In this document: piece after piece, positions 1-21,162 of the stretch
How the letters are laid out: the number at the start of each line of letters is the position of its first letter
Numbering within the stretch: the stretch's first letter is position 1
Assembly (NCBI GenBank): GCA_025839675.1
Contig: CP104013.1
Span: 5,760,001 to 5,792,000, forward strand
DNA length: 32,000 nt
Direction of reading: 5' to 3'
Origin: Candidatus Lokiarchaeum ossiferum
GTDB lineage: Archaea > Asgardarchaeota > Lokiarchaeia > Sigyniarchaeales > Promethearchaeaceae
Notes under the pieces: model-generated
What the model saw: the letters and a program-made list of their open reading frames with translations, nothing else
Database searches by the model: none
What the model was told of the DNA's origin: nothing
Translations under genes and position numbers: made by a program

Positions 1-1
1 T

Positions 2-379
2 GAAATTGCATTGAATAGATTCAGTCAATATTCCGAACAAGAAAAAAAAAAGAAAGAGAAAGTGCTTCAAATTCAAGCAAAAAGAATTTATGATGATTTG
101 CAGAAGATACTTTTTTCAAACGACCAAAATATAGATGATTCAAAATATTCACTTGTATTTAATGAAATTACTCCATTAGTGACAAAATTAGGCTTTATAT
201 TCGACACAGAATTCATTTCTGATGATGATTATATATCTTTCTTCAATATAGATAATAAGTATATTTTAAAAAGGTCTGGAGTTCATTATCTTTCTAATAA
301 AGAAGATATAGATAAAAGACAATTTCTCAAAGATTTAAAAGATTATTGGAAAGAAAAAATTGAGTTAGATATAAGTTAA
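2..379 (+). CDS. hypothetical protein, probably 5'-truncated by the window edge
   Basis: The frame of track ORF 11..379 stays open back to nt 2 (E-I-A before the TTG at 11). Lys/Asp-rich, no recognisable motif. TAA stop at 377-379. Confidence 0.45.
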   Translation, partial: EIALNRFSQYSEQEKKKKEKVLQIQAKRIYDDLQKILFSNDQNIDDSKYSLVFNEITPLVTKLGFIFDTEFISDDDYISFFNIDNKYILKRSGVHYLSNKEDIDKRQFLKDLKDYWKEKIELDIS

Positions 380-386
380 TTTATAT

Positions 387-563
387 TTAATTCTCTCCTT
401 TCATTGGTCGAATTTTTGCACCCATTTCTAATAATCTACGTCTAACAGTGGATTTTCCAATACTCATAATTTTAGGGAATGAATCCATCCCTATCTTCTT
501 TTCAATGTATAAGCATTTGATTTCCTTATCTTTTCATTCTTTTTCTGCCAAATAAAACTCCAT
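387..563 (-). pseudogene. short helix-turn-helix-like remnant with one in-frame TGA
   Basis: My minus-strand translation: MEFYLAEKE-[TGA]-KDKEIKCLYIEKKIGMDSFPKIMSIGKSTVRRRLLEMGAKIRPMKGEN-stop. The segment SIGKSTVRRRL resembles the recognition helix of resolvase/transposase-type HTH domains. Too short for the 60-aa track cutoff. Confidence 0.25.
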
Positions 564-699
564 TTTCCATTGCTCTATCTTATTACTATTGAGAATCTGG
601 TTCCCCTGCAATAACCAAGAAATATTTTTGGTGATACATTATGATAAGAACATGATAAATAAAAGTAAAGTTCCGAGACTGAGGGGTTGTGAATTTATT

Positions 700-718
700 T
701 GATAGCAATTTGCTATCA
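700..718. promoter_or_regulatory. perfect 19-bp palindrome TGATAGCAA-T-TTGCTATCA upstream of the HEPN gene
   Basis: 9-bp perfect arms around one central base. Lies 62 bp upstream of the TTG at 780 and ~130 bp upstream of the first ATG (846). Confidence 0.35.
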
Positions 719-779
719 CTTTTGTAAGTAAATAATCCCTTCTATTTAACAAATGTATAAAACTAGATCATAAGAAATA

Positions 780-2051
780 TTGAGCTATTTTAAAAATAGT
801 CTCAAAAAGAAAAACAAATATTTGCTAATATCTAATATTGTTATTATGTCAAAATCTGGAAATTTTGAAAATAAGGATGTAGAAGATTTATTCAATATAT
901 TATGTAGTGAATATTCTCGAATAAATAAAATTATTGAAGACCAACCACCTTGTAGTAATCCTCCTCCAAATTTTGAACAGTTTAAGATTCTCCTGGATCA
1001 TAATGTATTGTTTAAATATGGTCAGTTGGAAGTGATGCAGTTTCATCCAGAGATTTTTCAAATTTTGAAGAAAATATTCCTCGAATTTAATGAGGATTTA
1101 CATGTAGGCTTTTCGCTTGATTATTATGCTTATAAGATTAAAATTGGGTCACTATACAATAAAATTGTTCAAGAGACCTTTATTGTATGGAAATTTTTTT
1201 TTAATCAATTTAAATCTAAATTGCATGAAATAATCAAAGATTGGCGCTCTGATTTTAATGAATTAGAAATGGATATCTCGATTATACTCCCTCTAAAAGG
1301 CTTTTATCTTAATAAAAAGGAAATTACACCTTTCATAATTATATCTGATGACAATTCTACAGCAATTTTTCAAAATATACCCAATTATAGTGTTTACACA
1401 AACAGAATATTGATTGATAGATCATCTCTTAAATTTGGATTGGATGGAATCTCAAACCAATTTTCACCTTATTGTATTCTAATAAAATCTAAAATTCCAT
1501 TCGATGTACTAAAACGAGATGAAAGTGGTAAATTTTTTATGGGAGTAGATCATCCTGAAAATCCGATTAAAATATGGGAACATGTGAAACATTTTGTACA
1601 AGTATTAGCACTTGAAGGAAATCCAATAAAATTTGGAAAACCTTTTTACCACTTTCCATGGTGGATATCTAAAAGAATCATAAATTTGATGAAATTTATG
1701 TATCCTGACTGGATTGACTCACAGTTTTTTATAAATCATGAATATAGCGAGATTGTACCTGATTATTATACATTTAATAATGATATGCATAATTATAATC
1801 GAGATTATATATTTTATTCAATCGAAAATAATCCACGACTCAAAAAGGATATGATTTCTCAATACTCATCTAATATATTAGATCCTACTGAAATTTTTGC
1901 TAATGAGTTATCTAAGAAAATTTCTCAACCATGTGATTTTGATCATATAAAGGAAATCTGGTATTGCTTAACTAATTATAATCAAAATATCAATTTCTCA
2001 AAATCAGAATTTCTACTACACTCTCTCCTTAGAATTGGTTCAAAAACTTAA
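780..2051 (+). CDS. N-terminal portion of an Apea-like HEPN protein; ends at TAA-ATA-TAA and continues in the same frame as 2058..2510
   Basis: 423-codon ORF in track (TTG start; first ATG at 846). Same frame (mod 3 = 0) as the downstream HEPN ORF. The C-terminal end ...SEFLLHSLLRIGSKT runs straight into the first HEPN helix. Confidence 0.6.
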   Translation: MSYFKNSLKKKNKYLLISNIVIMSKSGNFENKDVEDLFNILCSEYSRINKIIEDQPPCSNPPPNFEQFKILLDHNVLFKYGQLEVMQFHPEIFQILKKIFLEFNEDLHVGFSLDYYAYKIKIGSLYNKIVQETFIVWKFFFNQFKSKLHEIIKDWRSDFNELEMDISIILPLKGFYLNKKEITPFIIISDDNSTAIFQNIPNYSVYTNRILIDRSSLKFGLDGISNQFSPYCILIKSKIPFDVLKRDESGKFFMGVDHPENPIKIWEHVKHFVQVLALEGNPIKFGKPFYHFPWWISKRIINLMKFMYPDWIDSQFFINHEYSEIVPDYYTFNNDMHNYNRDYIFYSIENNPRLKKDMISQYSSNILDPTEIFANELSKKISQPCDFDHIKEIWYCLTNYNQNINFSKSEFLLHSLLRIGSKT

Positions 2052-2057
2052 ATATAA

Positions 2058-2510
2058 GATGTTGTACTTCATGTTTGTCTTCTTCTTGAAGGAATGTTTT
2101 TGGCTGGAATTGAAGATGAATTGACTTACCGGCTAAAATTGAATGCGGCTTCATTATTATCATCAAATTTTGAAGAATTTGAAAGTGAAATGGAATTTTT
2201 TGGCTTGCTCTATGGATTGAGAAGTCAAATAATTCATGGTACTCCTAATTGGAAGATCTCCAATAAATCAACAACTAAATATAAAAAATTTATATCTCAC
2301 TTCCAATTAAAGGGTCTTTCTGAATTATACTCACTAGAAAATCCCTATAATATGAGAGTTTTAGAATATAATCTAAAATTGCAACTCTACCAGAAAATGT
2401 GCAAAATTTTAAAATTATTGATTAAAGGTGATATTGATTATAAATGCAGTTTTAAAAATGCGGGATTTTTAAAAGAATTTCTTAAGAAATATAAATCAAT
2501 ATTACGGTAA
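2058..2510 (+). CDS. HEPN domain (Rx4H) portion, probably the C-terminal half of one gene with 780..2051
   Basis: DVVLHVCLLLEGMFLAGIEDELTYRLKLNAASLL...LYGLRSQIIHG, with R at 2220-2222 and H at 2235-2237 giving the Rx4H HEPN motif. The track ATG at 2094 would cut off part of helix 1, which begins at 2058 right after the second TAA. Confidence 0.6.
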   Translation, partial: DVVLHVCLLLEGMFLAGIEDELTYRLKLNAASLLSSNFEEFESEMEFFGLLYGLRSQIIHGTPNWKISNKSTTKYKKFISHFQLKGLSELYSLENPYNMRVLEYNLKLQLYQKMCKILKLLIKGDIDYKCSFKNAGFLKEFLKKYKSILR

Positions 2511-2555
2511 AACAATTAGAAAATCAAAAAGAATAGCCAATATCAAAACAGAATC

Positions 2556-2579
2556 ACTTCTGGAAAATATTTCAGAAGT
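2556..2579 (+). terminator. hairpin plus T-rich tail downstream of the HEPN gene
   Basis: CTTCTGGAA-AATA-TTTCAGAAG: about 9-10 bp of stem including one G-U pair and a 4-nt loop. Followed by tcattttggttttt. Lies 46 nt after the stop at 2510. Confidence 0.35.
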
Positions 2580-3059
2580 TTCATTTTGGTTTTTAATATT
2601 CCTTAGAGGTAAAATTTTATTTAAGTTCCTCTATCCAGAAAAAAGGGTTCCTGTATTCTTGAGAAGTAGCAATTTTTCCCAGATCCATTTTCAATTATCG
2701 AAATTGAAGGCTTCAAGTTTCTACATCATCAAGAATCCTATTCGGGCAAAATTTGGAAGTCCATATCTGAAAAATCCTTACAGAAAGTTCATAAAAATGC
2801 TTTCGAGGTTAAATCTCCTTCTATGGAGAATCAAAAACGAAATGAAGAGTGTCAAAGAAAAAATGAAATTAATTTTTTGTTGAAACATATGCAAAAATCT
2901 TAATAGAATTGACTAGGGAGGGTTTTAATAAAAAAAATTTCTTAGAATATCCTCGGAAATCGGGAGGAAATGACTGGTCCTTTCAATACTTTTTTTGCTA
3001 TTTGTCTAAGTTGATTTGATAGGGGATTTCATTTTTATAGTATTATCGCTAACAAGTAA

Positions 3060-4061
3060 TTGAGAAACGTGAATCTAGAAGACAATTCGTTGGTATTGAT
3101 TTTAAAAGAAAAACAAAGTGATTATTATCATTCACTAATAAAGGTTTATCAAAATTCCAAGGAATATCTAATGCAATATATCCGATATCTCCCCGATTTT
3201 ACTGATCATTCTATTATCCATTCAGATAATGTACTGAAGATTATCACCCTAATGCTTGAAAAGAGTGGGCATCTTCAAGAAATCGTTCCTGAAGAAATTT
3301 ATGTTTTATGTTGTGCAACTATTCTTCATGATATTGGTATGGGTGTTCCGGATGAGTTTATAGAGAATCACAAAGAATCTTTACATAATTATAATAATGA
3401 AGATGTTCTCTCAAATCGAAGAACATTTCATCATGTTCTTAGTAAAATGCTAATTCAAGAAGAATGGGAGAAACTAAAAATAATTGATGAAAAATTTGCA
3501 GAAGCGATTGGTTTGGTTGCTCAAGGTCATCGGAAAGTGAATTTAAACAATTTTTACGAGTATAATCCAAGACAAATTGTCTCAAGCGGGGTGAATTATG
3601 TAAATCTTCCATATTTATCTTGGATATTAAGACTTGGTGATGAATTAGATTTAACTAATAATAGATTGAATGAATTGGTGCTATATCATTATCCTCCTCC
3701 AACCTCAATAGGAGAAACGGAAATAAATAAACATAGAGGCACATTCCTGCTCCATTTTGGGGAGAAGTATATTACTATTGAAGCGAAAACTTCCGATCGG
3801 GGAATTTACCATTCTTTAAAGACGCATCATAAAAAAATAGGTCAATTATTAAAAGATTTTCATAAAACAATCACCTCATTTCCTACCCCAAATAATTATT
3901 GCTATGATTTCCCTTATATTTATGTAGAATCGAAAATAGTTCCTCTGAATTTTACTCCTATGGATATTGGGTTTTCTGTGAACAACAATGCTCTTTTTAA
4001 ATATTTCATAAATGCACAAATGTATTCCAAATCAATATTCGCTGTTCGAGAATGCGTTTAA
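3060..4061 (+). CDS. HD-domain phosphohydrolase portion; ends at an in-frame TAA inside the N-box of the following GHKL ATPase domain
   Basis: H...HS..V (TDHSIIHSDNV) and ILHDIGM motifs typical of the HD superfamily. The last residues SIFAVRECV are the start of the Bergerat-fold motif I. Confidence 0.65.
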   Translation: MRNVNLEDNSLVLILKEKQSDYYHSLIKVYQNSKEYLMQYIRYLPDFTDHSIIHSDNVLKIITLMLEKSGHLQEIVPEEIYVLCCATILHDIGMGVPDEFIENHKESLHNYNNEDVLSNRRTFHHVLSKMLIQEEWEKLKIIDEKFAEAIGLVAQGHRKVNLNNFYEYNPRQIVSSGVNYVNLPYLSWILRLGDELDLTNNRLNELVLYHYPPPTSIGETEINKHRGTFLLHFGEKYITIEAKTSDRGIYHSLKTHHKKIGQLLKDFHKTITSFPTPNNYCYDFPYIYVESKIVPLNFTPMDIGFSVNNNALFKYFINAQMYSKSIFAVRECV

Positions 4062-5636
4062 AATGCAATTGAAGCATGTAGAATCCAAAAATTCAATCAA
4101 AATGACCGATATTCGCCAGAAATTACCATTAAGTTAACAGAAAATATTTTAGAAATCTCTGATAATGGCGTTGGAATGGATATTGATGATATTCAAAATG
4201 AATTTGCTTGTTTGGGCGAGAGCCATTTTAGAAGATATAAAATAGCGCATCCGAAGTATCAAAATGGAATCTCATTATTTGGAGTTGGAGTTTTCTCTTA
4301 TTTCATGGTCGCTGATTCCTTCGAAGTAAGGACACGCAAACGAAATGGTAAGTTTTATAAATTTCAAATTTCAAAGGATTTTTTCAATGATTTCTATTTC
4401 TTTAATGAAAACGAAACCGATTTCACTGGAACTTCGATAAAATTTAATTTAAGCAAACATTTTTGTCAGGAATTTTCTAAAATCGAGGATTTTTTAAATT
4501 TTCTAACAAAATATTTTCGCTTAGTTAAAATCCCTATATACTTTGATCTTGAATCAAACCGAAGGAGAATATCTCAACGAAATTTCTTCTTTTACCCTCT
4601 AAAAACAAAATGCATGACAGAAAACAATTCTAAAGTTGCTGAACAATTAATTAAAATGGAAAATATGGTTAGTCTCAAACCATTTACTGCTCCAAATTAT
4701 AAAGGTACCATTTTTTATTCAAAAAAAAACACCCGAAATACTCTTTCATATCCAAAAATTCAATATTTCTTCAAGAATATTTTTATAAAAGAAGTAACCC
4801 TTGAAAACCTTTTATTACCATTTTATTGTATTGGTAAAATTAACATTTATGATGTTAAAGTATTAACTCTAAATCGAAATAATATGTGGGATGCAAAGTT
4901 TGAAACCAAAATTCAGTCGAAAGTTCTTGAAGAAATATTCAAATCGGTTCCTGTAAATCGATATGTTTCATCCAAAAACTTTTGTTCGCAGTTTGTAAAT
5001 CGATCTGATTTTAAACCTTCATTAGTAAAGGTCTATGAACTTAACACAAATGACACGATTTATCTTGAGTTATTGTTTTCCCGAATTATTTTTGATTTAA
5101 AACGAGAACCCATGTCTTTACTCCATTTATTAAAAGAGAGGAAAGCGAACTTCTTTTTCGAAGATGATCAACATGTACATTCCAACAGTTATTCCGATGA
5201 GGAAAGTTTTACACCCCAAATAATTTTGAAAAAAAAACAGATTTCTAAGTATATATTAGTTCTAATTCTGCTAACTTCAAGATTTCAAATGACGAGAGAT
5301 GTGAAAGGTTCGATTGTCCTAAAAATATTACATTTTCCTTCACGGGATACCAAGATGATGATCAATTCTGAAGAAAAATATATTCTTGCAACTAAATTTG
5401 ATGAAAGTGACATTCTTTTTCATTTTGGGAATGGGATTTTGTTTTTAAATACCCATTATGGAGATCGAAGGATGAAAAAAAATATTACGACTATAGCTAC
5501 AAACAAAGGAGCGGTTGCGTATCTTCTAAATAATTTTGATACGCTTGAAAGGGAATACTTTTCAAAATCTCGATACCAGCTCTTTAAATCAGTCGCCGAG
5601 AAAATCAAATCATTTTTTTTGGTTAAAGGCCAATAG
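4062..5636 (+). CDS. GHKL/Bergerat-fold (HATPase_c_3 / sacsin-MORC-like) ATPase portion, same frame as 3060..4061
   Basis: Directly after the TAA the frame reads NAIEAC (rest of the N-box E-x3-N-A-x-D/E-A). Then SDNGVGMD (G1 box) and FGVGVFSYFMVAD (G2 box). The track ORF starts only at the M of GVGMD (4176), in the middle of the ATP-binding domain. TAG stop at 5634. Confidence 0.65.
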   Translation, partial: NAIEACRIQKFNQNDRYSPEITIKLTENILEISDNGVGMDIDDIQNEFACLGESHFRRYKIAHPKYQNGISLFGVGVFSYFMVADSFEVRTRKRNGKFYKFQISKDFFNDFYFFNENETDFTGTSIKFNLSKHFCQEFSKIEDFLNFLTKYFRLVKIPIYFDLESNRRRISQRNFFFYPLKTKCMTENNSKVAEQLIKMENMVSLKPFTAPNYKGTIFYSKKNTRNTLSYPKIQYFFKNIFIKEVTLENLLLPFYCIGKINIYDVKVLTLNRNNMWDAKFETKIQSKVLEEIFKSVPVNRYVSSKNFCSQFVNRSDFKPSLVKVYELNTNDTIYLELLFSRIIFDLKREPMSLLHLLKERKANFFFEDDQHVHSNSYSDEESFTPQIILKKKQISKYILVLILLTSRFQMTRDVKGSIVLKILHFPSRDTKMMINSEEKYILATKFDESDILFHFGNGILFLNTHYGDRRMKKNITTIATNKGAVAYLLNNFDTLEREYFSKSRYQLFKSVAEKIKSFFLVKGQ

Positions 5637-5682
5637 TTTCTTTTTTTCTGGTTACTTTCAATGTCAATTTATTCAGCAAACG

Positions 5683-5880
5683 GAATATAATAGGAAAGGA
5701 TTATTGGTTAAATATGACATTTCAACTATAACCAATGGCCAACTTGCCTTTAATCGCGTCTGGATAATCGATCAACCCGCCGCAATTCCAGGGATACCTT
5801 CCTATTTACTACTATGTGTGGCGGGATGTACAATACTCATCATCCAGGTTAAAAAAAGACACCGATCGAAAAGTACTTAG
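5683..5880 (+). pseudogene. 3' remnant of a surface-protein gene (C-terminal TM anchor, PGF-CTERM-like tail)
   Basis: Only the last ~65 codons of track ORF 5536..5880 look protein-like: ...LVKYDISTITNGQLAFNRVWIIDQPAAIPGIPSYLLLCVAGCTILIIQVKKRHRSKST-stop. There is no matching upstream body. Local GC rises (hand count 45% for 5761-5820). Confidence 0.3.
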
Positions 5881-5948
5881 TCGCTTGAAAAAATCTATAA
5901 AGCCCTTCATTTATTCAGTTAAAAGAGTCCTTAGAAAATGAAATGATT

Positions 5949-6170
5949 TCAATGTTGCTGCTTAGATGGATCACTCTCAGCTGATTTTAATATTCCGCTC
6001 TGATCTTTATCCTTTTGGCACATTTTTACTAAAGATAGTTGCTCATCACACAGTAGGGAAATATTTTCCCATTGATATTCCGAAATGTTACCTTGCACAA
6101 AGTGTTGCCAAGCTTTTTCTTTGACACATCCATAATCCCCAAGATTGAATTTTTCTTTTGAAGATGTCAT
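5949..6170 (-). CDS. hypothetical small protein
   Basis: 73-codon ORF with no motif recognised. Isolated between other genes. Confidence 0.3.
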   Translation of the reverse strand: MTSSKEKFNLGDYGCVKEKAWQHFVQGNISEYQWENISLLCDEQLSLVKMCQKDKDQSGILKSAESDPSKQQH

Positions 6171-6277
6171 CCCGAAGTCACATGGTCCTCACATTTCTTT
6201 GTTTCATTTCACTTTTAAGCATTAAAATTTCAAAGTAAGTTAGGATTATTTAAATTGACGAAAAATAATGGCATATT

Positions 6278-6874
6278 ATGCCAAAAGAGAATATAATCAC
6301 AGAACAAATCGGATTGTTTAAAATTACTGAAAATGAGTTTTGGTTTAATTCTGAAGGGTTAGAGTACATTTATCCCATTCTCGAAGTCAATATTCTGATA
6401 GAAAGACCAAAATATGAAGGTCCATACTTAAAAATAATTTATAAAGATGGGAACAGACAACCGAAGAGTTTACAAGGATTCCACTCGAGAATAAGCGTCG
6501 CATTTGAGCGAGCGTATGATATTCATGAGAAAAGATTATATTTTAAATTAATTCAAGAATTATTATCTGAATTACAACCTAATGATGAAATCTTACTTGA
6601 AGAAGCCATCAAGATTGTGAGAGAAGAGTTTAAATTATTGAATTATAAAAGAAGACAAATTCAAGACCATCAGCGAAAACCAAGAAAAGAAATAAGAGAT
6701 AATTATTTTGAAACACTATTTCGTTTTATTGACTCCAATATTCCAGAATTTGAATATGTGAGGTTGAAGCGTACTATTAGAATTAAATCAGATATTTCAA
6801 AAGTCATAAAAGAAATAGACACATTATTCGAAGAATGGGAATCTAATCCTAAAAATTTCAAAAATAGAGAATAG
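6278..6874 (+). CDS. hypothetical protein
   Basis: 198-codon ORF with ATG start and TAG stop. Helical, charged C-terminal half. No motif recognised. Confidence 0.5.
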   Translation: MPKENIITEQIGLFKITENEFWFNSEGLEYIYPILEVNILIERPKYEGPYLKIIYKDGNRQPKSLQGFHSRISVAFERAYDIHEKRLYFKLIQELLSELQPNDEILLEEAIKIVREEFKLLNYKRRQIQDHQRKPRKEIRDNYFETLFRFIDSNIPEFEYVRLKRTIRIKSDISKVIKEIDTLFEEWESNPKNFKNRE

Positions 6875-7055
6875 TATGTGTTTATTTTATCAAAAATGTA
6901 TACTAATAATTATGACAAAAAAGTTTCAAAAGATTAGAAATTGACCAGAAACCAGGAATCATATTTTGTGACGCAATTCGATAAGAGAATGATCAAAAAA
7001 GATGGAAATCATAGGGTTCAAACCGGAAGGGATTTGCTTGAAAACTGAACATATC

Positions 7056-7073
7056 ACCCCATAGGGGTTTTTT
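7056..7073 (+). terminator. ACCCC-ATA-GGGGT hairpin followed by a T6 run
   Basis: 5-bp GC-rich stem (7056-7060 / 7064-7068), 3-nt loop, then tttttt. About 180 nt downstream of the 6278..6874 stop. Confidence 0.3.
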
Positions 7074-7350
7074 CTATTTTCTGTCCATATTTGCGCTTCT
7101 TAGAATCACTCCAAGAAATAATATCACGGGGGGTGATGAAATCACCTTATTGTCTAAATTACTCGCTAATCTCGGTATTTTCGTTACCATTTCTTAGCAA
7201 AATTAATTGGGAAACGAAATTGGTAGATATTTCGTGAGAAAGGATGACAAATTAACTATTTCTAGAGGGTTCGGAATCGAATAACGATAATCGGAACCGA
7301 AAAAAGTTTAAAAAAAGATTATTTCAGAGAAAAATCTAGTATAATGCAAA

Positions 7351-7450
7351 ATACTTAGCAATACGTAAACGTGTTCTATTTTGAGAAAAAACATTAGAAG
7401 TTCCCTAAAAATACCATAGTTTACTCTAATTTAAGTTAACCAAAGTTAAA
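7351..7450 (+). repeat. direct repeat copy 1 (~100 bp)
   Basis: Aligns without gaps to 7531-7630 at an offset of exactly 180 nt, 82/100 identical by hand alignment. Conserved core: CGTAAACGTGTTCTA ... AAGTTCCCTAAAAATAC-ATAGTTT-CTCTAAT. Confidence 0.8.
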
Positions 7451-7530
7451 TGTCATGAGTAGATTTGCTCATCCAAAAGGTCTAAAGAATTCCAATGGGA
7501 ATACTATAGTATTCTTAGTAAATGCGAGGT

Positions 7531-7630
7531 ATACTTAAGAAAGCGTAAACGTGTTCTAATTTGGGAAAAGAAAATACAAGTTCCCTAAAAATACAATAGT
7601 TTGCTCTAATCTAAATAAACGAAAGTTTAC
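7531..7630 (+). repeat. direct repeat copy 2 (~100 bp)
   Basis: See copy 1. Both copies are preceded by an AATGC-purine motif. GAGGTATAC occurs at 7526-7534 and again at 7642-7650. Confidence 0.8.
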
Positions 7631-7878
7631 CTACTTAAGATGAGGTATACCCATTCGAACCAAATGTAAACATTTCAAGCAAAACTGTTAAATAAGGGGT
7701 TTTCCTTATTATAGATAGTTTAAAAATAATTTGACCTATTGTACCCTTAACAATCATTTTTATAATTTATAGTAAACAGATAACATTCATACAGTTGTTT
7801 TCACAAAAAACGATCATATCGTTCTGTTATCTATGCTTATATGTAAAGAAATTGTTAAAAGAATAGGAAAAAAAATAT

Positions 7879-7950
7879 GGGCCAGTAGATTAATGGTATA
7901 TCACGTCCCAGTCAAGGATGATATTGTGGGTTCGACACCCACCTGGTCCA
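7879..7950 (+). tRNA. tRNA, anticodon GTC (Asp) by the standard 7-nt loop reading; atypical anticodon loop and Ala-like acceptor features
   Basis: Hand-folded cloverleaf. Acceptor GGGCCAG/CTGGTCC with G3-U70. D arm GATT-AATGGTA-TATC. Anticodon stem CGTCC/GGATG, loop CAGTCAA. Variable loop ATATT. T arm GTGGG-TTCGACA-CCCAC. Discriminator A. No encoded CCA. Confidence 0.75.
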
Positions 7951-8164
7951 CTATTTTCTATTCAATTTTTCATTGAACAATATTACTAAGTATTACAAGA
8001 TATATAATAATTTAGCCTAATAACCATCACTATTTTTAATTCAAAATCCTTTATTTTTTTATTTTGTGGGAAAAATAAAAAACGCTAATGTAGTAATAAT
8101 GAAAAAAAAAGAAGTTAATCTTTGAGAAAATCTGAATCAGGAATCATTTTTTTGCCCACTAAAA

Positions 8165-8338
8165 TCATAATAATAATCGAATTTGTTCAAGGAAATTCTT
8201 TACTGAATTTTTACCCTTATCTTTGGGTATTATTTCGATAATTTCTTTGAGTTCTTTCTTCAGCATATAGCGATAATCTAAATCTGTAATTGAGATACTT
8301 ATATTAATCTCAAATTCGAATGGATATTTTTGAGTCAT
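8165..8338 (-). CDS. possible 57-aa small protein (below the track cutoff)
   Basis: My minus-strand translation: MTQKYPFEFEINISISITDLDYRYMLKKELKEIIEIIPKDKGKNSVKNFLEQIRLLL-TGA. No motif recognised. Could be chance in AT-rich DNA. Confidence 0.2.
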   Translation of the reverse strand: MTQKYPFEFEINISISITDLDYRYMLKKELKEIIEIIPKDKGKNSVKNFLEQIRLLL

Positions 8339-8544
8339 GCTTTTTGCTCACTCCATTCTTTGATTTTTTCATTAATTGGGTTTGTTTAGATTCGAGGTTT
8401 ATTTTATTCTCTTTCTTCTACTCATCGATTCATAGTTGAACGAGATATGCACTCAAGTGAATGAATTTCAGAAAATCATCTTCTACTTTCCTTTCTTAAG
8501 ACTATGATATAAATTTTTAAATACGACTTCTACTAAGTAGGGAT

Positions 8545-8985: not shown

Positions 8986-9041
8986 TAAAATTGCCTGCAG
9001 ATTAATTTCCCGATTATTCTTAATATTTCAGTTATACCTTT

Positions 9042-10271: not shown

Positions 10272-10319
10272 TAAATATTGATCCTAAATTATTTTTATCC
10301 ATGCTGATCTTCTAGTATT

Positions 10320-10745
10320 ATGGGTAATTCCTCTCAAAATCCAAACCAATCTTCAAAAAAATCCTTCTTTCGACTTTATAAGGTGGAAGAATATATGTTT
10401 TGTTTGGAAAAATCCCCTTTGGGGCTAAGTTCCCGCCAATTACGTGCAACCATCCCCCTATCTGGTGCGGTTGAGCACACAATCACTCGATTTTTGATAG
10501 ATCGGGAGATAATCATGCTTTCCAGCCCTGCTAAAGGAAAGAAATATTTACTAACCGATTCGGGGAAATTACTTGCCTTGTTTCTCCACAATATGGATCT
10601 GCTTTTATCTATTGGAGAAAATCTCCGGCTTTCAGAAACCGACGAAAAAGAATTTCAGTCTCTCGAGGAAGAAATCTCCTTGTATATCCAAAAAGCCCAC
10701 AAATATCGGGAACTCTTAGCCTTAAAATCCAAAACCCCCCATTAA
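10320..10745 (+). CDS. winged-helix DNA-binding protein
   Basis: LSSRQLRATIPLSGAVEHTITRFLIDREIIMLSSPAKGKKYLLTDSGKLL fits the helix-turn-helix plus beta-wing pattern of MarR/ArsR-like wHTH proteins. Divergent from the TFB-like gene with a 48-bp spacer. Confidence 0.5.
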   Translation: MGNSSQNPNQSSKKSFFRLYKVEEYMFCLEKSPLGLSSRQLRATIPLSGAVEHTITRFLIDREIIMLSSPAKGKKYLLTDSGKLLALFLHNMDLLLSIGENLRLSETDEKEFQSLEEEISLYIQKAHKYRELLALKSKTPH

Positions 10746-12727: not shown

Positions 12728-13885
12728 ATGAGTACTGAAAAAACTCCTCCCGTCTTCACTACGATTTTTTGGGATTATGAAAATGTCTCCTTTTCGGGTC
12801 AAAGTCTAAACTTGTTTTTAAGTGGATTAGAAGTAATCAAAAACAAATTAGGGGGAAGTTTTATTCTTAAGTGCTTCAGTCAATGGAATAATATTCCCGA
12901 TGAGACTCAAGTTGCTATTATTAGCGCGGGTTTTGAACTATGTCAAGTCCCTCAAACTCGGAAAAATGCCGTAGACCAAACTATGATGGTCTCAGCAGTC
13001 AACCTTTCGCATCAATTGGAGTTTTCTCGCTTTATTCTCATTTCCTCTGATGGGGATTTTACTGCTCTTTGTCATGATCTTCGCAATAAGCAAATTGGCA
13101 TTTCGATTATTTCCCGCAAGCATTTATCCAATGATCTTCGGGAGGTTACTCAATCAATTTATTTTGTGACTTCCAATGGGATCTTGTTTGAATTTGAAGA
13201 AACCCTCCATGACAAATTAATTGAACTGATTGATTTAGGTGTTCAAGATGCGAATCGGGCGTGTGCAAATCTTTCCCCGGGCCATAAAGAAATTGGAACA
13301 GATAAATCCCTAGAAAATGTTACCATATTTTCTCGAATCGAATGGAAAAAAGCTTATGAGAACTTTCCCCATTGTCAAATTTCGCCGTTTATCTTAAGAC
13401 AGATCTTTAAGATTGATGATTTATACGAAACTTTTTTGCAAGTCTATGGCTATGGAGTCTCAAAGAACTATGATTATTTTTGCTTGCATGAAAGCGGTAA
13501 TAACAAAGAGATTATTGACCTAGATATTTTTGTGGATTTGCCCGAATCCATGGAACTACAAATACCCATCCAGAATTTACCGGCTTCGGAATTAAATGTA
13601 TTCAAGAAAGAAATAAGTCCTAAAAAAAAAGTGCATCCGGAGATCAAATCCCTAAACTTTACTGAGGCAATAAAAAAAGCATTTAAAACGTTTTGTGCGA
13701 AATCTAAAGCCACCAATATCAACATGGCGGTCCTTAATCAGCATACGTGCAATATTTTAGGAATTTCTCCATCTCAACAGGCCTATAAAAAAGCAGGCTT
13801 TTCCACGTTTAAAAAAGCATTGGAATCCATCAAAGGGCAACTCCCAAAGAAGATTAAAATTAAGAAAAATATTGTTTCATGGTAG
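12728..13885 (+). CDS. NYN (LabA-like, PIN-fold) domain protein with C-terminal OST-HTH/LOTUS-like domain
   Basis: N-terminus IFWDYENV and ILISSDGDFTAL match NYN catalytic-site patterns. C-terminus ...LGISPSQQAYKKAGFSTFKKALESI resembles the OST-HTH/LOTUS domain. Confidence 0.75.
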   Translation: MSTEKTPPVFTTIFWDYENVSFSGQSLNLFLSGLEVIKNKLGGSFILKCFSQWNNIPDETQVAIISAGFELCQVPQTRKNAVDQTMMVSAVNLSHQLEFSRFILISSDGDFTALCHDLRNKQIGISIISRKHLSNDLREVTQSIYFVTSNGILFEFEETLHDKLIELIDLGVQDANRACANLSPGHKEIGTDKSLENVTIFSRIEWKKAYENFPHCQISPFILRQIFKIDDLYETFLQVYGYGVSKNYDYFCLHESGNNKEIIDLDIFVDLPESMELQIPIQNLPASELNVFKKEISPKKKVHPEIKSLNFTEAIKKAFKTFCAKSKATNINMAVLNQHTCNILGISPSQQAYKKAGFSTFKKALESIKGQLPKKIKIKKNIVSW

Positions 13886-14048: not shown

Positions 14049-14447
14049 TTGATCAATATGGTCAAACGAGGAAATGAATATTATACTTGGGAAGCTAGTT
14101 TAGAAAAAAATAGAGCTTATTTAACATGTATGGGAAGTGTCCCTTCTGTTGATGCAATTCCGAATTTTGAAAGTGATTGTAAAAAAACTGCAAATGAATT
14201 AAAAACGGGGTGGTCCGTTCTTGGAAACTTTTTAAACCAAGAAGGAAAATTACCACCAGATGTAGAGAAAATTCATTCTAAAGCACAGCAATATTGTATG
14301 ACGCATGGATGCATTGCTGCAGCTCAAGTTGCACCCATAGAAGTAATTGTTCAAATAAATAAATTTTCAAAAGAGAGTGGAATGAAAGAAGTACTTAAAG
14401 GTTTTCACACTGTCAACGCCGCAGAATCGTGGTTAGATACAAAATAA
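14049..14447 (+). CDS. hypothetical small protein (possibly a SpoIIAA/STAS-like fold, tentative)
   Basis: 132-codon ORF. The C-terminal ...GFHTVNAAESWLD ending is reminiscent of STAS-like DUF proteins, but this is weak. Confidence 0.45.
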   Translation: MINMVKRGNEYYTWEASLEKNRAYLTCMGSVPSVDAIPNFESDCKKTANELKTGWSVLGNFLNQEGKLPPDVEKIHSKAQQYCMTHGCIAAAQVAPIEVIVQINKFSKESGMKEVLKGFHTVNAAESWLDTK

Positions 14448-18090: not shown

Positions 18091-21000
18091 ATGACAGAAT
18101 TCTTGGCTGGTCTTCCCCTTCTCACTCCACCCTTAAAAGATATCTTATTAAATTTAGTAAGTGATGGTATTTATGATGCACTTTCCAAACATTACCCGCA
18201 ATGTGAACCGAAAGACCATAATTTTAATGATCAATTAAATCGCATAATCAAATTGTGCTTTGAAAAAGCGGAGGAAGAATATATGCCAGAATTTAAAAAA
18301 TTCGATAAGACAACGCAAGCATTGATTAAATCCTTCTTCCATAATACAAATGTCATTACATCTCTCATAAATCGGCTGTATTTTTTCCGATATAATCAAC
18401 AAGGTCAAGTAGAAATTCCTTCCGACGTGAAAACCATTTTTGTTCTCCATTTTCAGAAAGTTACCCTTTTAGAGGATAAAAAAGGGGAAGAAATTGGCTT
18501 AAGCATTTATGCCAGCCTAATTAATTTAATCCAAAAAGTCTTGGATGAGATCTACCAATCGAGATTCTTAGGAGATGCGGGAACAATGACGGATCATCGA
18601 ACATTGCTACTGATTGAAGAAATGCGAACTCAATCTCACATCATTCAAAGCAATTTTCAAAAAATTCTTACTGACCGAAAAACAAATATTGAAGCGATTC
18701 TCAAATTTGAAATTGAACTCCGAGATACAATGGCAAACGCAATGAATGATATCTGTATCCATGACATCGATGAAAAAAAAAGATGTGAAATTAAGGACAT
18801 TTTTGTTTCGCCTAAATTTAAAAGTTTTAATCCAGAAAAAGAATTAGAGAGGGAAGAGATATTCAAAGAATCTTTTACTAACAATAACCTTAAATCATCT
18901 ATATTAAAGATGTCTGTAAATATGTCTAATAGATTTAGATCTCTCGATTTGGACATTAATGGTCTGTTAAAGGATTCTTATTATTCCGTAATTTTAGGGG
19001 ATCCTGGTAGCGGAAAATCAACTTTGACAAAGGTCATTACCTATAAAGTTAACAAAAATTATGAAAGCAAATTGATTTTCAATAGACATCTAACTGTTCT
19101 TCCTATCATATTACGCGATTATTCACCAAAAATGGATGAATTGTCTATTTTAAATTATATCGAGAACAAAGCACAGGTAGATTATAGCTTAACTATTCCA
19201 GAAAATGCATTAAATTATCTGGCCCAACAAGGGAGAATTGCAATTATTCTCGACGGATTAGATGAATTAGATTATTCCAAACATCGCAACATAATTATTA
19301 CACGCATTGAAGCATTTATTCAAAAATATCCCTATGTTCCTGTGATTGGGACATCTAGAATCATTGGGTATCAAAATGCGCCTCTAAAAAAGTCTAAATT
19401 TGCTCATTATACAATCGAACCTTTTGATAATAATCAAATTAAAGAGTATATCACTAAATCCTTCGCATTATTAACGAATTCATCAAACTGGAAACAAAAC
19501 ACACCTATTGATGAAATTATTGAGGATTTCATGATACAAAGTCAAACTGTTTCTGATATTCGAAGTAATCCTTTATTACTCGCTTTAATGAGTAAACTAT
19601 TTCTTAATTCAAGATCAATACCTCAATCTCGTCCCGAAATATATGAATCTTGTACTAAAATGTTGCTCAAACAGTGGTATGTTATTAGAAATATAGAAAC
19701 AGAATATACACTAGATGAAATCAATGATTTACTTTCCTTAATTGCATACAATATTTATCAGCATGATGATTACAAACAAGGTATCAAAAAAACGGATATA
19801 ATTAATATATTACAAGAATATTTGCTCGAAATTAAATTTAAATATCCTCCAACGGCAAGAAATTACGCTAATAATTTTATAGAATCTTGTACAGGTAGAT
19901 TATGGGTTCTAACAGATGTAGGGTTATCGGAGTCAAATGAAAAAATTTACAATTTTACGCATAAAACATTCATGGAATATTTTGTTTCCGTCTACATAAA
20001 TGCCACAAAGGAAGGAGGAAGGGAGATTTACAAATTTCTTAAACCTAATATTCTCAATATTGTGGAAAATGAAATATCCCAGCTTACTATTCAAATATTG
20101 GGACGGAATTCACCAACTGGATTTAATTCCTTTTTTGATAGCTTAGTTTCATCGGTGGAAAGAACTAAAGACAATAAGAAGAAAATCACTATGTTAGATT
20201 TTATTCTAACATTCTTACCTATCAAATTTCCAAAATTGACAATCCTTTCCAAAATTTTTAAAGCAACTTTTAAATTAGTGGGTTTAGGCTCTGTTAATTC
20301 TGACATTTTAACTAATGCATTGCATTATCGTCAAAATAAATCTTTACACCTGATCTTTTTACAAAATTTATTTGAGGAACTAGGACCAAGTGGTTTGCTC
20401 TCAATAAACTCTTTTAGGATATATAATATAATTGACCGATTGGTATCATATAGATTTAAAGAACATGAAAATGATGAAATATATCAAATTAATTGTAAGA
20501 TTTTCAGAAAAATACAATTAGAAATATTGAAATTAGATTGTGATGTTGTAGAAAATAGACTCGAAATTATTACGTCTCTCTTAGATAACTCTTACATTTT
20601 ATTTAGGGAAGAGAAAAAATTTGATGATTATCTAGATTATCTAAGAATACCTTCATTTGAATACTACTATGTGCAAAAAGAAAAAATAAGTTTCGCTCTT
20701 TTTCTTAACATCCACCATAAAGCTCAAAATTTCATTTACAGGGGGGTAAAATTTCCATCATATATAGAAGAATTTATCTCACTTTTGACTAAATATCCGA
20801 AAATTTTTTCATCAGAACTATATAGCTTAGGTACAGTTGATCTTTTTTTGCGAGAAAAAATTACAATCTATCTCTCAAAATTACCATCAGTAAGTTTTGG
20901 ATTATTTTTGCTTTTATTTTTCATCTATTTTGATCCTTTGAATAAAACTCACAAAGAGACTTTTATAAGATTTGATAGAATCCAATATAAAAAAAGTGAA

Positions 21001-21162
21001 ATTTTCAATACATTTGATCGTACTATCGAAATATATAAAATGAAAATCTCCACAACAAATCTGCAAGTTCCTAAGTCGTCAAATTTATCTAATGATCAAA
21101 AGGATATGATTCTATCATTGTTCTCAGTCGAGAAGAAAACTGAGAGTGCGAGATATTTATAA
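18091..21162 (+). CDS. NACHT-family STAND NTPase with uncharacterised ~290-aa N-terminal domain and ~450-aa C-terminal helical region
   Basis: Walker A VILGDPGSGKSTLTK (~18990-19030). Walker B IAIILDGLDEL (~19237-19269). Downstream NACHT-typical SNPLLLALMSKLF. 1023 codons. Very AT-rich (hand counts 22-25% GC on two 60-nt lines). Confidence 0.85.
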   Translation: MTEFLAGLPLLTPPLKDILLNLVSDGIYDALSKHYPQCEPKDHNFNDQLNRIIKLCFEKAEEEYMPEFKKFDKTTQALIKSFFHNTNVITSLINRLYFFRYNQQGQVEIPSDVKTIFVLHFQKVTLLEDKKGEEIGLSIYASLINLIQKVLDEIYQSRFLGDAGTMTDHRTLLLIEEMRTQSHIIQSNFQKILTDRKTNIEAILKFEIELRDTMANAMNDICIHDIDEKKRCEIKDIFVSPKFKSFNPEKELEREEIFKESFTNNNLKSSILKMSVNMSNRFRSLDLDINGLLKDSYYSVILGDPGSGKSTLTKVITYKVNKNYESKLIFNRHLTVLPIILRDYSPKMDELSILNYIENKAQVDYSLTIPENALNYLAQQGRIAIILDGLDELDYSKHRNIIITRIEAFIQKYPYVPVIGTSRIIGYQNAPLKKSKFAHYTIEPFDNNQIKEYITKSFALLTNSSNWKQNTPIDEIIEDFMIQSQTVSDIRSNPLLLALMSKLFLNSRSIPQSRPEIYESCTKMLLKQWYVIRNIETEYTLDEINDLLSLIAYNIYQHDDYKQGIKKTDIINILQEYLLEIKFKYPPTARNYANNFIESCTGRLWVLTDVGLSESNEKIYNFTHKTFMEYFVSVYINATKEGGREIYKFLKPNILNIVENEISQLTIQILGRNSPTGFNSFFDSLVSSVERTKDNKKKITMLDFILTFLPIKFPKLTILSKIFKATFKLVGLGSVNSDILTNALHYRQNKSLHLIFLQNLFEELGPSGLLSINSFRIYNIIDRLVSYRFKEHENDEIYQINCKIFRKIQLEILKLDCDVVENRLEIITSLLDNSYILFREEKKFDDYLDYLRIPSFEYYYVQKEKISFALFLNIHHKAQNFIYRGVKFPSYIEEFISLLTKYPKIFSSELYSLGTVDLFLREKITIYLSKLPSVSFGLFLLLFFIYFDPLNKTHKETFIRFDRIQYKKSEIFNTFDRTIEIYKMKISTTNLQVPKSSNLSNDQKDMILSLFSVEKKTESARYL

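What the first reader, a model, noticed from the sequence alone, without database searches (positions are those of the whole stretch)
4047..4079. In-frame TAA inside the ATP-binding N-box of an HD + GHKL ATPase gene
Track ORFs 3060..4061 and 4176..5636 share a frame, and the sequence across the gap is coding: ...SIFAVRECV-[TAA]-NAIEACRIQKF...ISDNGVGMD...FGVGVFSYFMVAD.

The stop sits between the Glu and Asn of Bergerat motif I (E-x3-N-A-x-D/E-A), at the position usually occupied by Gln/Ser in sacsin/MORC/Hsp90-type ATPases (for example ELIQNAdDA). One C-to-T change (CAA to TAA) explains it.

Neither half can be an independent functional gene. Apart from this one codon, the 858-codon frame is intact in ~25% GC DNA, where random stops are frequent. 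So this is either a very recent nonsense mutation or a stop that is read through.
Basis: partly seen in the sequence, partly recalled or inferred. Interest (0 to 1): 0.7.

Follow-up and report, generated by a model that had tools for sequence, protein, structure and literature searches.

The report
Recently broken HD–Hsp90 fusion gene
One C-to-T change has put a stop codon into the ATP-binding site of a strain-specific HD-phosphohydrolase/Hsp90-like gene of the Asgard archaeon Lokiarchaeum ossiferum B35, so this is most likely an ordinary, very young pseudogene and not a case of stop-codon read-through.

Summary
Frame 3060..5636 has 858 sense codons and one internal TAA (4059-4061). The other five frames of the same span have 52-85 stops.

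The window comes from Ca. Lokiarchaeum ossiferum B35. GenBank annotates the halves as two CDSs: a 330-aa hypothetical protein, and a 486-aa "Chaperone protein HtpG" that starts inside the DxGxG motif.

Homologues are single ~850-1030-aa proteins with an N-terminal HD-CE domain fused to a complete Hsp90-like module. The stop lies between the catalytic Glu331 and the Mg-ATP Asn335. That column is Gln in 26/28 aligned homologues and in 79/79 motif instances found by pattern in 80 genomic loci (CAA 53, CAG 26). So CAA→TAA is the parsimonious change.

Independent Illumina-only contigs also carry the TAA, over 7053 identical bases.

Nothing points to recoding:
- none of 80 homologous loci has an in-frame stop;
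- there is no RNA structure 3' of the stop;
- TAA terminates other genes in the window;
- only Sec/Pyl read-through has been unequivocally established in Archaea.

The gene sits in a 6.4-kb B35-specific cassette that is missing from the syntenic locus of sister strain B36 (ANI 97.2%).

All 29 invariant residues survive and there is no second lesion, so the mutation is recent.

Verdict: a real feature, but ordinary. It is a young nonsense pseudogene, wrongly annotated as two genes. Read-through is not excluded without proteomics, but is unlikely (~4%).

The parts
3060..4058 (+). 5' part of the disrupted gene (codons 1-333). Contains the HD-CE phosphohydrolase domain (residues 44-239), a linker/beta region, and the first half of the Hsp90 N-box helix (…R330-E331-C-V). 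GenBank CDS NEF87_004901 / UYP48616.1 starts at GTG 3069 (330 aa).
   Evidence: Pfam PF24391 HD-CE, 1.3e-34, 120.5 bits against a cutoff of 27. Invariant residues H50, H54, H90, D91, H124, H157 and D194 are retained. Exact look-up of the 330-aa product.
3327..3332 (+). The eponymous His-Asp dyad of the HD domain (CAT GAT, H90-D91 in 'LHDIGM').
   Evidence: Invariant column in alignment A1; codons checked.
4050..4064 (+). Bergerat/Hsp90 motif I core: GAA (catalytic Glu331) TGC GTT TAA AAT (Mg-ATP Asn335).
   Evidence: E331 and N335 are invariant in A1. The family profile aligns this stretch to 'RELISNASDA' of Grp94/Hsp90.
4059..4061 (+). In-frame TAA at codon 334, inferred to derive from CAA (Gln) by one C-to-T transition at 4059.
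   Evidence: Q in 26/28 aligned homologues. Q in 79/79 genomic motif instances found by pattern, 53 CAA and 26 CAG. The same TAA is present in Illumina-only Logan contig SRR22273277_129, with 0 mismatches over 7053 bp.
4062..5636 (+). 3' part of the disrupted gene (codons 335-858 plus the TAG terminator): the rest of the Hsp90-like N domain, the middle domain and the C domain. GenBank annotates only 4176..5636 (UYP48617.1, 486 aa, 'Chaperone protein HtpG').
   Evidence: HATPase_c_3 and HATPase_c matches. NCBIfam HtpG model aligned to residues 304-621. Family profile against full-length Grp94/HtpG/TRAP1, E about 4e-36. Foldseek on the AF2 model hits full-length Hsp90s at E about 1e-19.
4161..4178 (+). 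Motif II (D368-N-G370-V-G372) followed by M373. M373 is the first canonical start codon after the TAA and the start of the annotated 486-aa CDS.
   Evidence: D368, N369, G370, G372 and M373 are invariant in A1. Codons checked. Reading the sequence shows no ATG/GTG/TTG in frame between 4062 and 4175.
4278..4304 (+). Glycine-rich motif III, 'FGVGVFSYF' (G408, G410, F415).
   Evidence: Invariant columns in A1. This stretch was used as the conserved family pattern [FY]G[IV]G[VIM][FL]S[YC]F[LM].
4875..4877 (+). Arg606 (CGA) in 'LTLNRNN', aligned with the Hsp90 middle-domain catalytic-loop arginine ('NVSRE' of Grp94).
   Evidence: Nearly invariant column in A1. Family-to-Grp94 alignment 'inlsRnef / LNVSRETL'. 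That this Arg is the catalytic-loop residue is from general Hsp90 knowledge.
1..5720 (.). Window part of a roughly 6.4-kb B35-specific cassette. It runs from about 640 bp upstream of the window to 5720 and carries three ORFan genes plus the HD-Hsp90 gene. In strain B36 it is replaced by about 0.9 kb.
   Evidence: blastn of the window and of L003 against the B36 syntenic locus L086. Flanks match at 83-93% and the interior does not match.

Best explanation
The locus is one gene that a recent nonsense mutation (CAA to TAA, Gln334 to stop, C-to-T at window 4059) has cut in two.

The intact gene encoded an 858-residue stand-alone protein: an N-terminal HD-CE metal-dependent phosphohydrolase fused to a complete Hsp90-type ATPase (N, middle and C domains). 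This family is found mainly in Bacteroidota and other bacteria, and sporadically in Asgard archaea. In Lokiarchaeum it behaves as an accessory, strain-variable gene, plausibly a conflict or defence gene.

Translation now stops between the catalytic Glu and the Mg-ATP-binding Asn of the ATP lid helix. No ATP-hydrolysing Hsp90 module can therefore be made.

What remains is at most a 330-333-residue HD-CE protein, followed by an untranslated or spuriously annotated 3' remnant. The 486-aa 'HtpG' CDS is an annotation artefact.

Shown: the stop, its position in the motif, the single-ORF state of homologues, read-level support, the accessory location, and the absence of any other lesion.

Inferred: the direction and recency of the mutation, the loss of function, and the defence-type role of the intact protein.
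For: 1. The stop is real. The window is identical (7053/7053 bases) to a contig assembled independently from Illumina run SRR22273277. That contig is recorded in 3 samples. The genome itself was ONT-assembled and Pilon-polished with three NovaSeq time points (PMC9834061).
2. It was one gene. All HD-CE homologues that also carry the ATPase are single 846-1030-aa proteins. 74 of 80 genomic loci have one uninterrupted ORF of at least 700 codons, and none has an in-frame stop.
3. The ancestral codon. The column is Q in 26/28 aligned homologues. It is CAA or CAG in 79/79 motif instances found by pattern. The B36 paralogue has CAA in a nearly identical local context.
4. The ATPase is disabled. E331 and N335 flank the stop, and the first canonical start codon downstream is M373, after D368-x-G370.
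5. The mutation is recent. All 29 invariant family columns are retained on both sides of the stop, and the frame has no other stop or frameshift. With 423/7713 nonsense-producing substitutions plus indels, the lack of a second lesion implies neutral divergence of less than about 0.005-0.011 since the event. The two strains differ by about 0.028.
6. The gene is dispensable. It lies in a 6.4-kb cassette missing from the syntenic locus of strain B36. The two strains are reported to differ mainly in defence and mobilome genes (bioRxiv 10.64898/2026.02.13.705702).
7. There is no recoding signal. The RNA 3' of the stop folds no better than shuffles (z = +0.98). TAA, TAG and TGA all terminate other genes in the window.
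Against: - No orthologue above 40% identity exists in any searched collection. The ancestral state is therefore inferred from paralogues and distant homologues, and no dN/dS test of post-mutation selection is possible.
- Intactness of the remaining 857 codons is also what continued selection under read-through would produce.
- The sequence is divergent from the family core: 47/156 highly conserved columns differ, against 37/158 for the intact B36 paralogue. This could hide some relaxed constraint, or simply reflect lineage divergence.
- I could not inspect raw read pile-ups or any proteome.
Confidence: 0.85

Rival explanations
1. Programmed or leaky read-through. The TAA is decoded at useful frequency, for example by a near-cognate Gln, Lys or Tyr tRNA. 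A full-length HD-Hsp90 protein is then made at a low, possibly regulated level, alongside the truncated HD-CE product.
For: - The frame is otherwise perfectly intact, and every invariant residue downstream of the stop is kept.
- Low-level expression of a potentially toxic conflict protein would be biologically sensible (inference).
- An archaeal recoding review argues that interrupted genes can be functional (PMC8211752).
Against: - The stop is not conserved. None of 80 homologous loci has an in-frame stop, and 79/79 motif instances found by pattern encode Q.
- No stimulatory RNA structure follows it (z = +0.98; 170/200 shuffles fold at least as well).
- TAA is used as a genuine terminator by five other genes in the window.
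- In Archaea, read-through has been unequivocally established only for Sec (UGA) and Pyl (UAG) (PMC8037382 abstract). The review PMC8211752 does not mention UAA at all.
- A recent mutation explains the intact frame equally well.
Confidence: 0.04
2. Adaptive truncation or split. The nonsense mutation is retained because the stand-alone HD-CE protein (330-333 aa) is the useful product, for example an unregulated or differently regulated phosphohydrolase. The C-terminal Hsp90 middle and C domains might also be expressed separately from M373.
For: - The HD-CE domain (residues 44-239) lies wholly upstream of the stop, with all HD residues intact.
- HD-CE occurs in other architectures: P0061 combines HD-CE with PF01156 in 590 aa.
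- GenBank and Logan gene callers predict both halves as CDSs.
Against: - No naturally split two-gene version of the family turned up among 85 protein hits or 80 loci.
- The stop falls inside a helix of the ATPase rather than at the domain boundary near residue 300.
- A product starting at M373 lacks E331, N335 and D368, so it cannot bind or hydrolyse ATP.
- The 114-nt gap to the next start codon makes coupled re-initiation unlikely (inference).
Confidence: 0.07
3. Sequencing or assembly artefact, or a minor allele fixed by polishing. The real population carries CAA.
For: - The assembly started from error-prone R9.4.1 nanopore reads (PMC9834061).
- The site lies between short T and A homopolymers (GTTTAAAAT).
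Against: - The change is a substitution, not an indel. The frame is the same on both sides of the stop.
- The genome was polished four times with Illumina data.
- An Illumina-only Logan contig, recorded in 3 samples, runs through the site without a break and with the same T.
- No intact allele exists among 5.8 billion protein clusters.
Confidence: 0.03
4. Stop-codon reassignment. TAA is a sense codon in this organism.
For: None beyond the single in-frame TAA.
Against: - Treating TAA as sense fuses or extends many unrelated ORFs without improving gene models.
- TAA ends 780..2051, 2094..2510, 10320..10745, 14049..14447 and 18091..21162.
- The >3100-codon ORF at 22632.. contains no stop of any kind under the standard code.
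Confidence: 0.005

Closest known systems
Hsp90 family chaperones (bacterial HtpG, Grp94/endoplasmin, TRAP1, cytosolic Hsp90)
   Same: - Residues ~300-858 align over the N, middle and C domains. The family profile hits Grp94 2o1u residues 25-633 at E = 3.7e-36. Foldseek hits full-length Hsp90s at E about 1e-19.
- Motif I (R-E-x-x-x-N-A-x-D/E), motif II (DxGxG), motif III (GxGxxS) and the middle-domain Arg are all present.
   Different: - It is not an HtpG orthologue: 70.8 bits against a cutoff of 371 for NF003555.
- It carries a ~300-residue N-terminal HD-CE extension that canonical Hsp90s lack.
- It has Q where Hsp90 has S between the Glu and the Asn.
- This copy is interrupted by a stop.
- The GenBank name 'Chaperone protein HtpG' for the 3' fragment is misleading.
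HD-CE + HATPase_c_3 single-gene family (Pfam PF24391 + PF13589), e.g. WP_371804547.1 of L. ossiferum B36 (P0032) and 'HD domain-containing protein' of Thalassobellus citreus (P0003)
   Same: - Same domain order and length.
- All 29 invariant columns are shared.
- 27-29% global and 36-39% local identity.
- Stand-alone gene with no conserved neighbour.
- Found in variable regions. The B36 copy sits next to a SLFN_AlbA_2 gene and an integrase fragment.
   Different: - This copy has the TAA.
- It is the most divergent member of the core group: 47/156 conserved columns differ.
- It lacks the C-terminal 'N-x-N-H' motif.
- No member has been studied experimentally as far as I could find. Searches for 'HD-CE' found no relevant paper.
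Interrupted archaeal genes expressed by recoding (Saccharolobus solfataricus fucA1, -1 frameshift; Sec/UGA and Pyl/UAG read-through)
   Same: An archaeal gene split into two ORFs whose joined product matches full-length homologues (PMC1616953, PMC8211752).
   Different: - fucA1 is a frameshift at a slippery site.
- Sec and Pyl use UGA or UAG with dedicated machinery.
- Here the codon is UAA, with no conserved signal, no structure, and no conservation of the interruption.
Sacsin SRR / MORC-type GHKL modules
   Same: Same Bergerat fold and the same HATPase_c_3 Pfam family.
   Different: Sequence and fold searches place this protein with genuine full-length Hsp90s, not MORC or sacsin. It has no S5-fold-only or HEPN context.

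Membership tests
Hsp90 family (GHKL superfamily) | Bergerat motif I: catalytic Glu and Mg-ATP Asn in E-x-x-x-N-A-x-D | tested here: inconclusive
   E331 and N335 are present and invariant in the family. The codon between them is TAA, and the last residue is E338 instead of D. The motif is encoded but cannot be translated as one chain.
Hsp90 family (GHKL superfamily) | Motif II DxGxG and glycine-rich motif III | tested here: met
   D368-N-G370-V-G372 and F-G408-V-G410-V-F-S, all invariant columns.
Hsp90 family (GHKL superfamily) | Middle domain with catalytic-loop Arg, and C-terminal domain; full-length similarity | tested here: met
   Profile-to-Grp94 alignment spans residues 25-633. R606 is nearly invariant. 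Foldseek aligns about 630 columns to full-length Hsp90s at E about 1e-19, though the model is only moderately confident (pLDDT 69).
HtpG (orthologous group, NCBIfam NF003555) | Score at or above the curated equivalog cutoff | tested here: not met
   70.8 bits against a cutoff of 371. This is an Hsp90-like paralogue, not HtpG.
HD-CE domain family (Pfam PF24391) | Match above the gathering score, with the H…HD…H…D metal-binding residues | tested here: met
   120.5 bits against a cutoff of 27, residues 44-239. H50, H54, H90, D91, H124, H157 and D194 are retained.
Programmed stop-codon read-through (recoding) | The interrupting stop is conserved in homologues or orthologues | tested here: not met
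   None of 80 loci has an in-frame stop. Q is encoded in 79/79 motif instances found by pattern. No orthologue is available for a stricter test.
Programmed stop-codon read-through (recoding) | A cis signal: a stimulatory RNA structure, or a SECIS/PYLIS-like element, 3' of the stop | tested here: not met
   Region 4050-4170 folds at -11.4 kcal/mol against a shuffle mean of -14.1 (z = +0.98). No Rfam family is found in the window.
Programmed stop-codon read-through (recoding) | The full-length protein is detected | not testable with these tools
   The held supplement text of the B36 preprint does not list NEF87_004901/2, and no supplement text is held for the glycoproteomics paper.
Unitary pseudogene by recent nonsense mutation | A single disabling lesion relative to intact homologues, at a functionally essential site | tested here: met
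   One TAA in 858 codons, inside motif I. Homologues are intact.
Unitary pseudogene by recent nonsense mutation | The lesion is real in the DNA, not an assembly error | tested here: met
   The Illumina-only Logan contig is identical over 7053 bp, including the TAA. Raw pile-ups were not inspected.
Unitary pseudogene by recent nonsense mutation | The gene is dispensable or accessory | tested here: met
   It is absent from the syntenic locus of strain B36, where a 6.4-kb cassette is replaced by 0.9 kb.
Unitary pseudogene by recent nonsense mutation | Relaxed selection (dN/dS about 1) after the lesion | not testable with these tools
   No orthologue above 40% identity exists in the protein, genome or metagenome collections.
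Anti-phage defence system (PADLOC catalogue) | Match to a catalogued defence protein model | tested here: not met
   Only weak partial hits: the RT_UG24 C-terminal region at 5.6e-6, Cas3-HD at 0.005, and REase_II at 1e-3. A defence role is inferred from context only.

The most novel reading that the evidence does not exclude
The UAA is read through at a low, biologically meaningful rate. Lokiarchaeum would then make a small amount of full-length HD-Hsp90 protein alongside a truncated HD-CE protein. That would be the first UAA read-through gene described in Archaea, in a lineage whose termination machinery (aRF1) is the closest prokaryotic relative of eukaryotic eRF1.

A weaker side reading is also not excluded: the intact HD-CE-Hsp90 family (at least 507 loci in species-representative genomes) may be an unrecognised stand-alone immune protein that couples an Hsp90-type ATPase to an HD phosphohydrolase effector.
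Probability: 0.04. Interest if true: 0.7.

Novelty: new member of a known kind. Interest (0 to 1): 0.15.

Why it matters
The main value is for annotation.

- In the reference genome of one of the few cultured Asgard archaea, NEF87_004901 and the adjacent 'Chaperone protein HtpG' (UYP48617.1) are two fragments of one nonsense-disrupted gene. Neither is an HtpG chaperone. Counts of Asgard chaperones or Hsp90 homologues should exclude this entry.
- It adds one dated example of how fast the accessory, defence-like gene set turns over between two strains that share 97.2% ANI.
- In passing, it draws attention to a widespread, uncharacterised family that fuses an HD phosphohydrolase to a full Hsp90 module. 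That family may deserve experimental work in its own right.
- Only if read-through were demonstrated would the locus become important, as the first UAA recoding case in Archaea.

Tried and rejected
- **Alternative genetic codes.** I recomputed ORFs with each stop codon in turn treated as sense. The standard code is clearly right.
- **RNA elements.** Rfam finds nothing in the window. The 3' context does not fold better than shuffles.
- **An orthologue to test whether the stop is conserved.**
  - Protein search of 5.8 billion clusters: the best non-self hit is 39% identical.
  - Close-relative scan of GTDB species genomes: nothing. No L. ossiferum locus was returned by either scan of that collection.
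  - JGI metagenome scan: nothing.
  - Exact-protein look-ups of the neighbours returned only the same project's Logan contigs.
  - I reached the B36 syntenic region indirectly, through the flavodiiron orthologue P0086. The gene is simply absent there.
- **A conserved operon partner.** None is shared between the window and the family loci, and none among the 13 closest loci.
- **Flanking repeats or att sites for the 6.4-kb cassette.** Only chance-level AT-rich matches.
- **Apparent heterogeneity between Logan contigs L004 and L005.** The gene calls have different lengths, but both DNAs are 100% identical to the window.
- **Relaxed selection judged from departures at conserved columns.** Inconclusive, because the intact B36 paralogue is almost as divergent.
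- **Literature on 'HD-CE'.** No relevant paper. My first query was also badly designed and wasted a search.
- **Proteome evidence.** NEF87_004901/2 is not listed in the supplement text held for the B36 preprint, and no supplement text is held for the glycoproteomics paper.
- **Frameshifted homologue L019.** This Chlorobiota MAG copy has a frameshift about 10 codons upstream of the same motif. It is a different kind of lesion in a MAG, most likely coincidence or an assembly error.
Full report
**1. The observation**

The sequence reads …CGA GAA TGC GTT TAA AAT GCA ATT GAA GCA…, with the TAA at 4059-4061.
- ORFs 3060..4061 and 4176..5636 share a frame.
- Translating 3060..5636 gives 858 sense codons, one internal stop (codon 334) and the terminal TAG.
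- The other five frames of the same span hold 52-85 stops. From base composition, the chance of at most one stop in 858 codons is about 2e-30.

One small correction: the gene is about 30% G+C, not about 25%.

**2. Where the window comes from**

- The 486-aa product of 4176..5636 is identical to UYP48617.1, 'Chaperone protein HtpG', of Candidatus Lokiarchaeum ossiferum, on a 6,035,313-bp contig.
- The 330-aa product of 3069..4058 is UYP48616.1, hypothetical protein NEF87_004901.
- That genome (strain B35, CP104013) was assembled from nanopore reads and polished four times with Pilon, using three NovaSeq samples from different enrichment time points (PMC9834061).
- The standard genetic code applies. 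All three stop codons terminate genes in the window, TAA in five of them. A >3100-codon ORF at 22632.. has no stop of any type.

**3. What the gene is**

*N-terminal part.* It matches Pfam HD-CE (PF24391, 1.3e-34, residues 44-239), with weaker PDEase_I and HD matches.

*C-terminal part alone.* It matches HATPase_c_3 only from profile position 28 and scores below the cutoff. With the halves joined, the match starts at position 4 and passes the cutoff.

*Homologues.*
- A search of 5.8 billion protein clusters finds single proteins of 846-1030 aa carrying HD-CE plus HATPase_c_3, at 22-39% local identity. No naturally split version appears.
- A scan of species-representative genomes finds at least 507 loci, mostly in Bacteroidota and other bacteria, plus one Heimdallarchaeota MAG.

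*The ATPase module.* It is a complete Hsp90-type module, not just a GHKL domain.
- The family profile aligns to Grp94, HtpG and TRAP1 over the N, middle and C domains (E = 3.7e-36, Grp94 residues 25-633).
- NCBIfam's HtpG model aligns to residues 304-621, but far below its cutoff (70.8 against 371 bits).
- An AlphaFold model of moderate quality (mean pLDDT 69) retrieves full-length Hsp90 structures at E about 1e-19.

So the gene is an HD-CE::Hsp90-like fusion. It is not an HtpG orthologue.

**4. Where the stop falls**

In a 29-sequence alignment (A1), R330, E331 and N335 are invariant. The stop column is Q in 26 of 28 homologues (K once, S once).

The family profile aligns this stretch to 'RELISNASDA' of Hsp90. 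The stop therefore sits between the catalytic Glu and the Mg-ATP Asn, at the Ser position of Hsp90.

A pattern search of 80 homologous genomic loci found 79 instances of the motif, all encoding Q (53 CAA, 26 CAG). The paralogue in the sister strain reads GAA TGT GTC CAA AAT GCA, against GAA TGC GTT TAA AAT GCA here. A single C-to-T transition from CAA is the parsimonious origin.

The gene itself uses CAA for 21 of its 26 Gln codons.

**5. Is the T real?**

A contig assembled independently by Logan from Illumina run SRR22273277, recorded in three samples, is identical to window 1..7053 (0 mismatches) and includes the TAA.

The lesion is a substitution, so homopolymer indel error cannot explain it. 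No intact allele exists in the protein collection. I could not inspect raw pile-ups.

**6. Consequences for the protein**

No ATG, GTG or TTG lies in frame between the TAA and ATG 4176 (M373, inside D-N-G-V-G-M). Any C-terminal product therefore lacks E331, N335 and D368 and cannot be an ATPase. The annotated 486-aa 'HtpG' is an artefact of ORF calling.

The N-terminal product keeps a complete HD-CE domain with all metal-binding residues. It could in principle still be active.

**7. Recoding or pseudogene?**

Evidence against programmed read-through:
- The stop is not conserved in any of the 80 loci. 74 are uninterrupted ORFs of at least 700 codons, 4 are cut by contig ends, 1 is frameshifted and 1 is slightly short.
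- The 120 nt around and after the stop fold no better than shuffled sequence (z = +0.98), and Rfam finds nothing.
- TAA is an ordinary terminator here.
[quoted passage not shown] A dedicated review never mentions UAA (PMC8211752).

Evidence for recency:
- All 29 invariant columns are retained on both sides of the stop, and there is no second lesion.
- 423 of 7713 possible substitutions would create a stop. With indels at 5-20% of the substitution rate, 270-660 disrupting events are expected per unit of neutral divergence. The absence of a second lesion therefore bounds the divergence since the mutation at roughly 0.005-0.011 (95%). This is a rough model.
- That is well below the ~0.028 separating strains B35 and B36 (ANI 97.2%).

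An intact frame is also what selection under read-through would give, so this argument cannot exclude read-through on its own.

**8. Genomic context**

I reached the sister strain B36 (CP163304) through the orthologue of the neighbouring flavodiiron gene (P0086, 98% identity).

Synteny between the two strains:
- Window 8451-12649, 14640-17967 and 21319-22165 match B36 at 89-96% identity.
- The HD-Hsp90 gene, the NYN gene (12728..13885), the NACHT NTPase gene (18091..21162) and the tRNA-Asp region have no counterpart in B36.

The HD-Hsp90 gene lies in a ~6.4-kb B35-specific cassette with three ORFan genes. In B36 this cassette is replaced by ~0.9 kb.

B36 has only a 36%-identical paralogue elsewhere, next to a SLFN_AlbA_2 gene and an integrase fragment.

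The published comparison says the two strains differ mainly in defence and mobilome genes.

In bacteria the family has no conserved neighbour. Some flanking genes are ABC/SMC-type defence ATPases (PDC-S06/AAA_13 in 5 of 120 neighbours), relaxases, recombinases or integrases. This is suggestive of defence or mobile islands, not proof. The ATPase hits cross-match between models, so the number of distinct proteins is small.

PADLOC does not catalogue the family.

**9. Conclusion**

The best explanation (about 85%) is a very recent CAA-to-TAA nonsense mutation. It inactivated the Hsp90-type ATPase of an accessory, probably conflict-related HD-CE-Hsp90 gene in strain B35, and the result was mis-annotated as two genes.

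Alternatives:
- Read-through, about 4%.
- Adaptive truncation to a stand-alone HD-CE protein, about 7%.
- Sequencing or assembly artefact, about 3%.

Decisive tests are read pile-ups, targeted proteomics for the junction peptide ECV-X-NAIEACR, and amplicon sequencing of the source sediment.

As a discovery it is ordinary (interest about 0.15). Its practical value is a correction to the annotation of an Asgard reference genome, and a pointer to an uncharacterised HD-Hsp90 family.

Noticed in passing
window 22632-32000 (+): An open reading frame of more than 3,122 codons runs off the end of the window. G+C is 40-45% against about 30% for the neighbouring genes, and GC skew is strongly negative. 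There are no Pfam hits at 1e-3. The middle part looks like a Ser/Thr/Asn/Asp-rich extracellular protein, while the first ~500 codons look non-genic, so the true start is probably further in. There is no counterpart in the last 3 kb of the B36 syntenic locus.
   Followed up: partly
window 18091-21162 (+), 12728-13885 (+): A 1023-aa NACHT NTPase (weak match to the antiphage EruA model) and a 385-aa NYN-domain protein are both B35-specific insertions relative to strain B36. The region is therefore a mosaic of strain-variable, defence-like genes between conserved blocks.
   Followed up: partly
window 7879-7951 (+); window 7284-8348: A tRNA-Asp(GTC) lies in a ~1-kb stretch with no match in the B36 syntenic locus, and ARAGORN finds no tRNA in the 21 kb of B36 examined. 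B36 has a resolvase gene and a 330-aa ORF near the corresponding position. This may be a site of mobile-element insertion or rearrangement.
   Followed up: partly
window 7053-7066: Illumina (Logan) contigs from two runs break here: one contig ends at 7053 and others start at 7066. This falls just inside a 7003-7284 block that is 90% conserved with B36. It suggests a repeat or low-coverage point, and I did not examine it.
   Followed up: no
L019:8001-10771 (Chlorobiota MAG JAKEEM010000012.1): The homologue in this MAG is split by a frameshift about 10 codons upstream of the same R-E-x-x-Q-N motif (frame 3 to frame 2 between 8966 and 8996). It is the only clearly disrupted copy among the 80 loci. 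It could be an assembly error or an independent pseudogene.
   Followed up: partly
window 4176-5636 (+); GenBank UYP48617.1 / WP_457917917.1: The 3' fragment is named 'Chaperone protein HtpG' in GenBank, RefSeq and UniRef. It starts inside the DxGxG motif and scores far below the HtpG equivalog cutoff, so the name is wrong and may spread to other records.
   Followed up: yes
L002:1-3058 and 8001-10694 (B36, CP163304.1 308952-327645): The intact B36 paralogue (897 aa) lies downstream of a >1500-aa SLFN_AlbA_2 (Schlafen-like) protein and a 93-aa phage-integrase fragment. LRR-serpin fusion genes lie further downstream. This looks like another variable island.
   Followed up: no
window 780-2051, 2094-2510, 2473-2883 (+) and L003:3143-4102: The other genes of the B35-specific cassette (319, 409/423 and 138 aa) have no Pfam, NCBIfam or PADLOC match and no homologue next to family members elsewhere. 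A 136-codon open frame (2473..2883) overlaps the end of the 138-aa ORF in another frame. That could be a frameshifted remnant.
   Followed up: partly
window 15246-17942 (+): An 898-aa protein with bacterial TSP3 repeats and similarity to the myxobacterial CglD/MtsD adhesion proteins. It is conserved in B36 at about 96% DNA identity.
   Followed up: no
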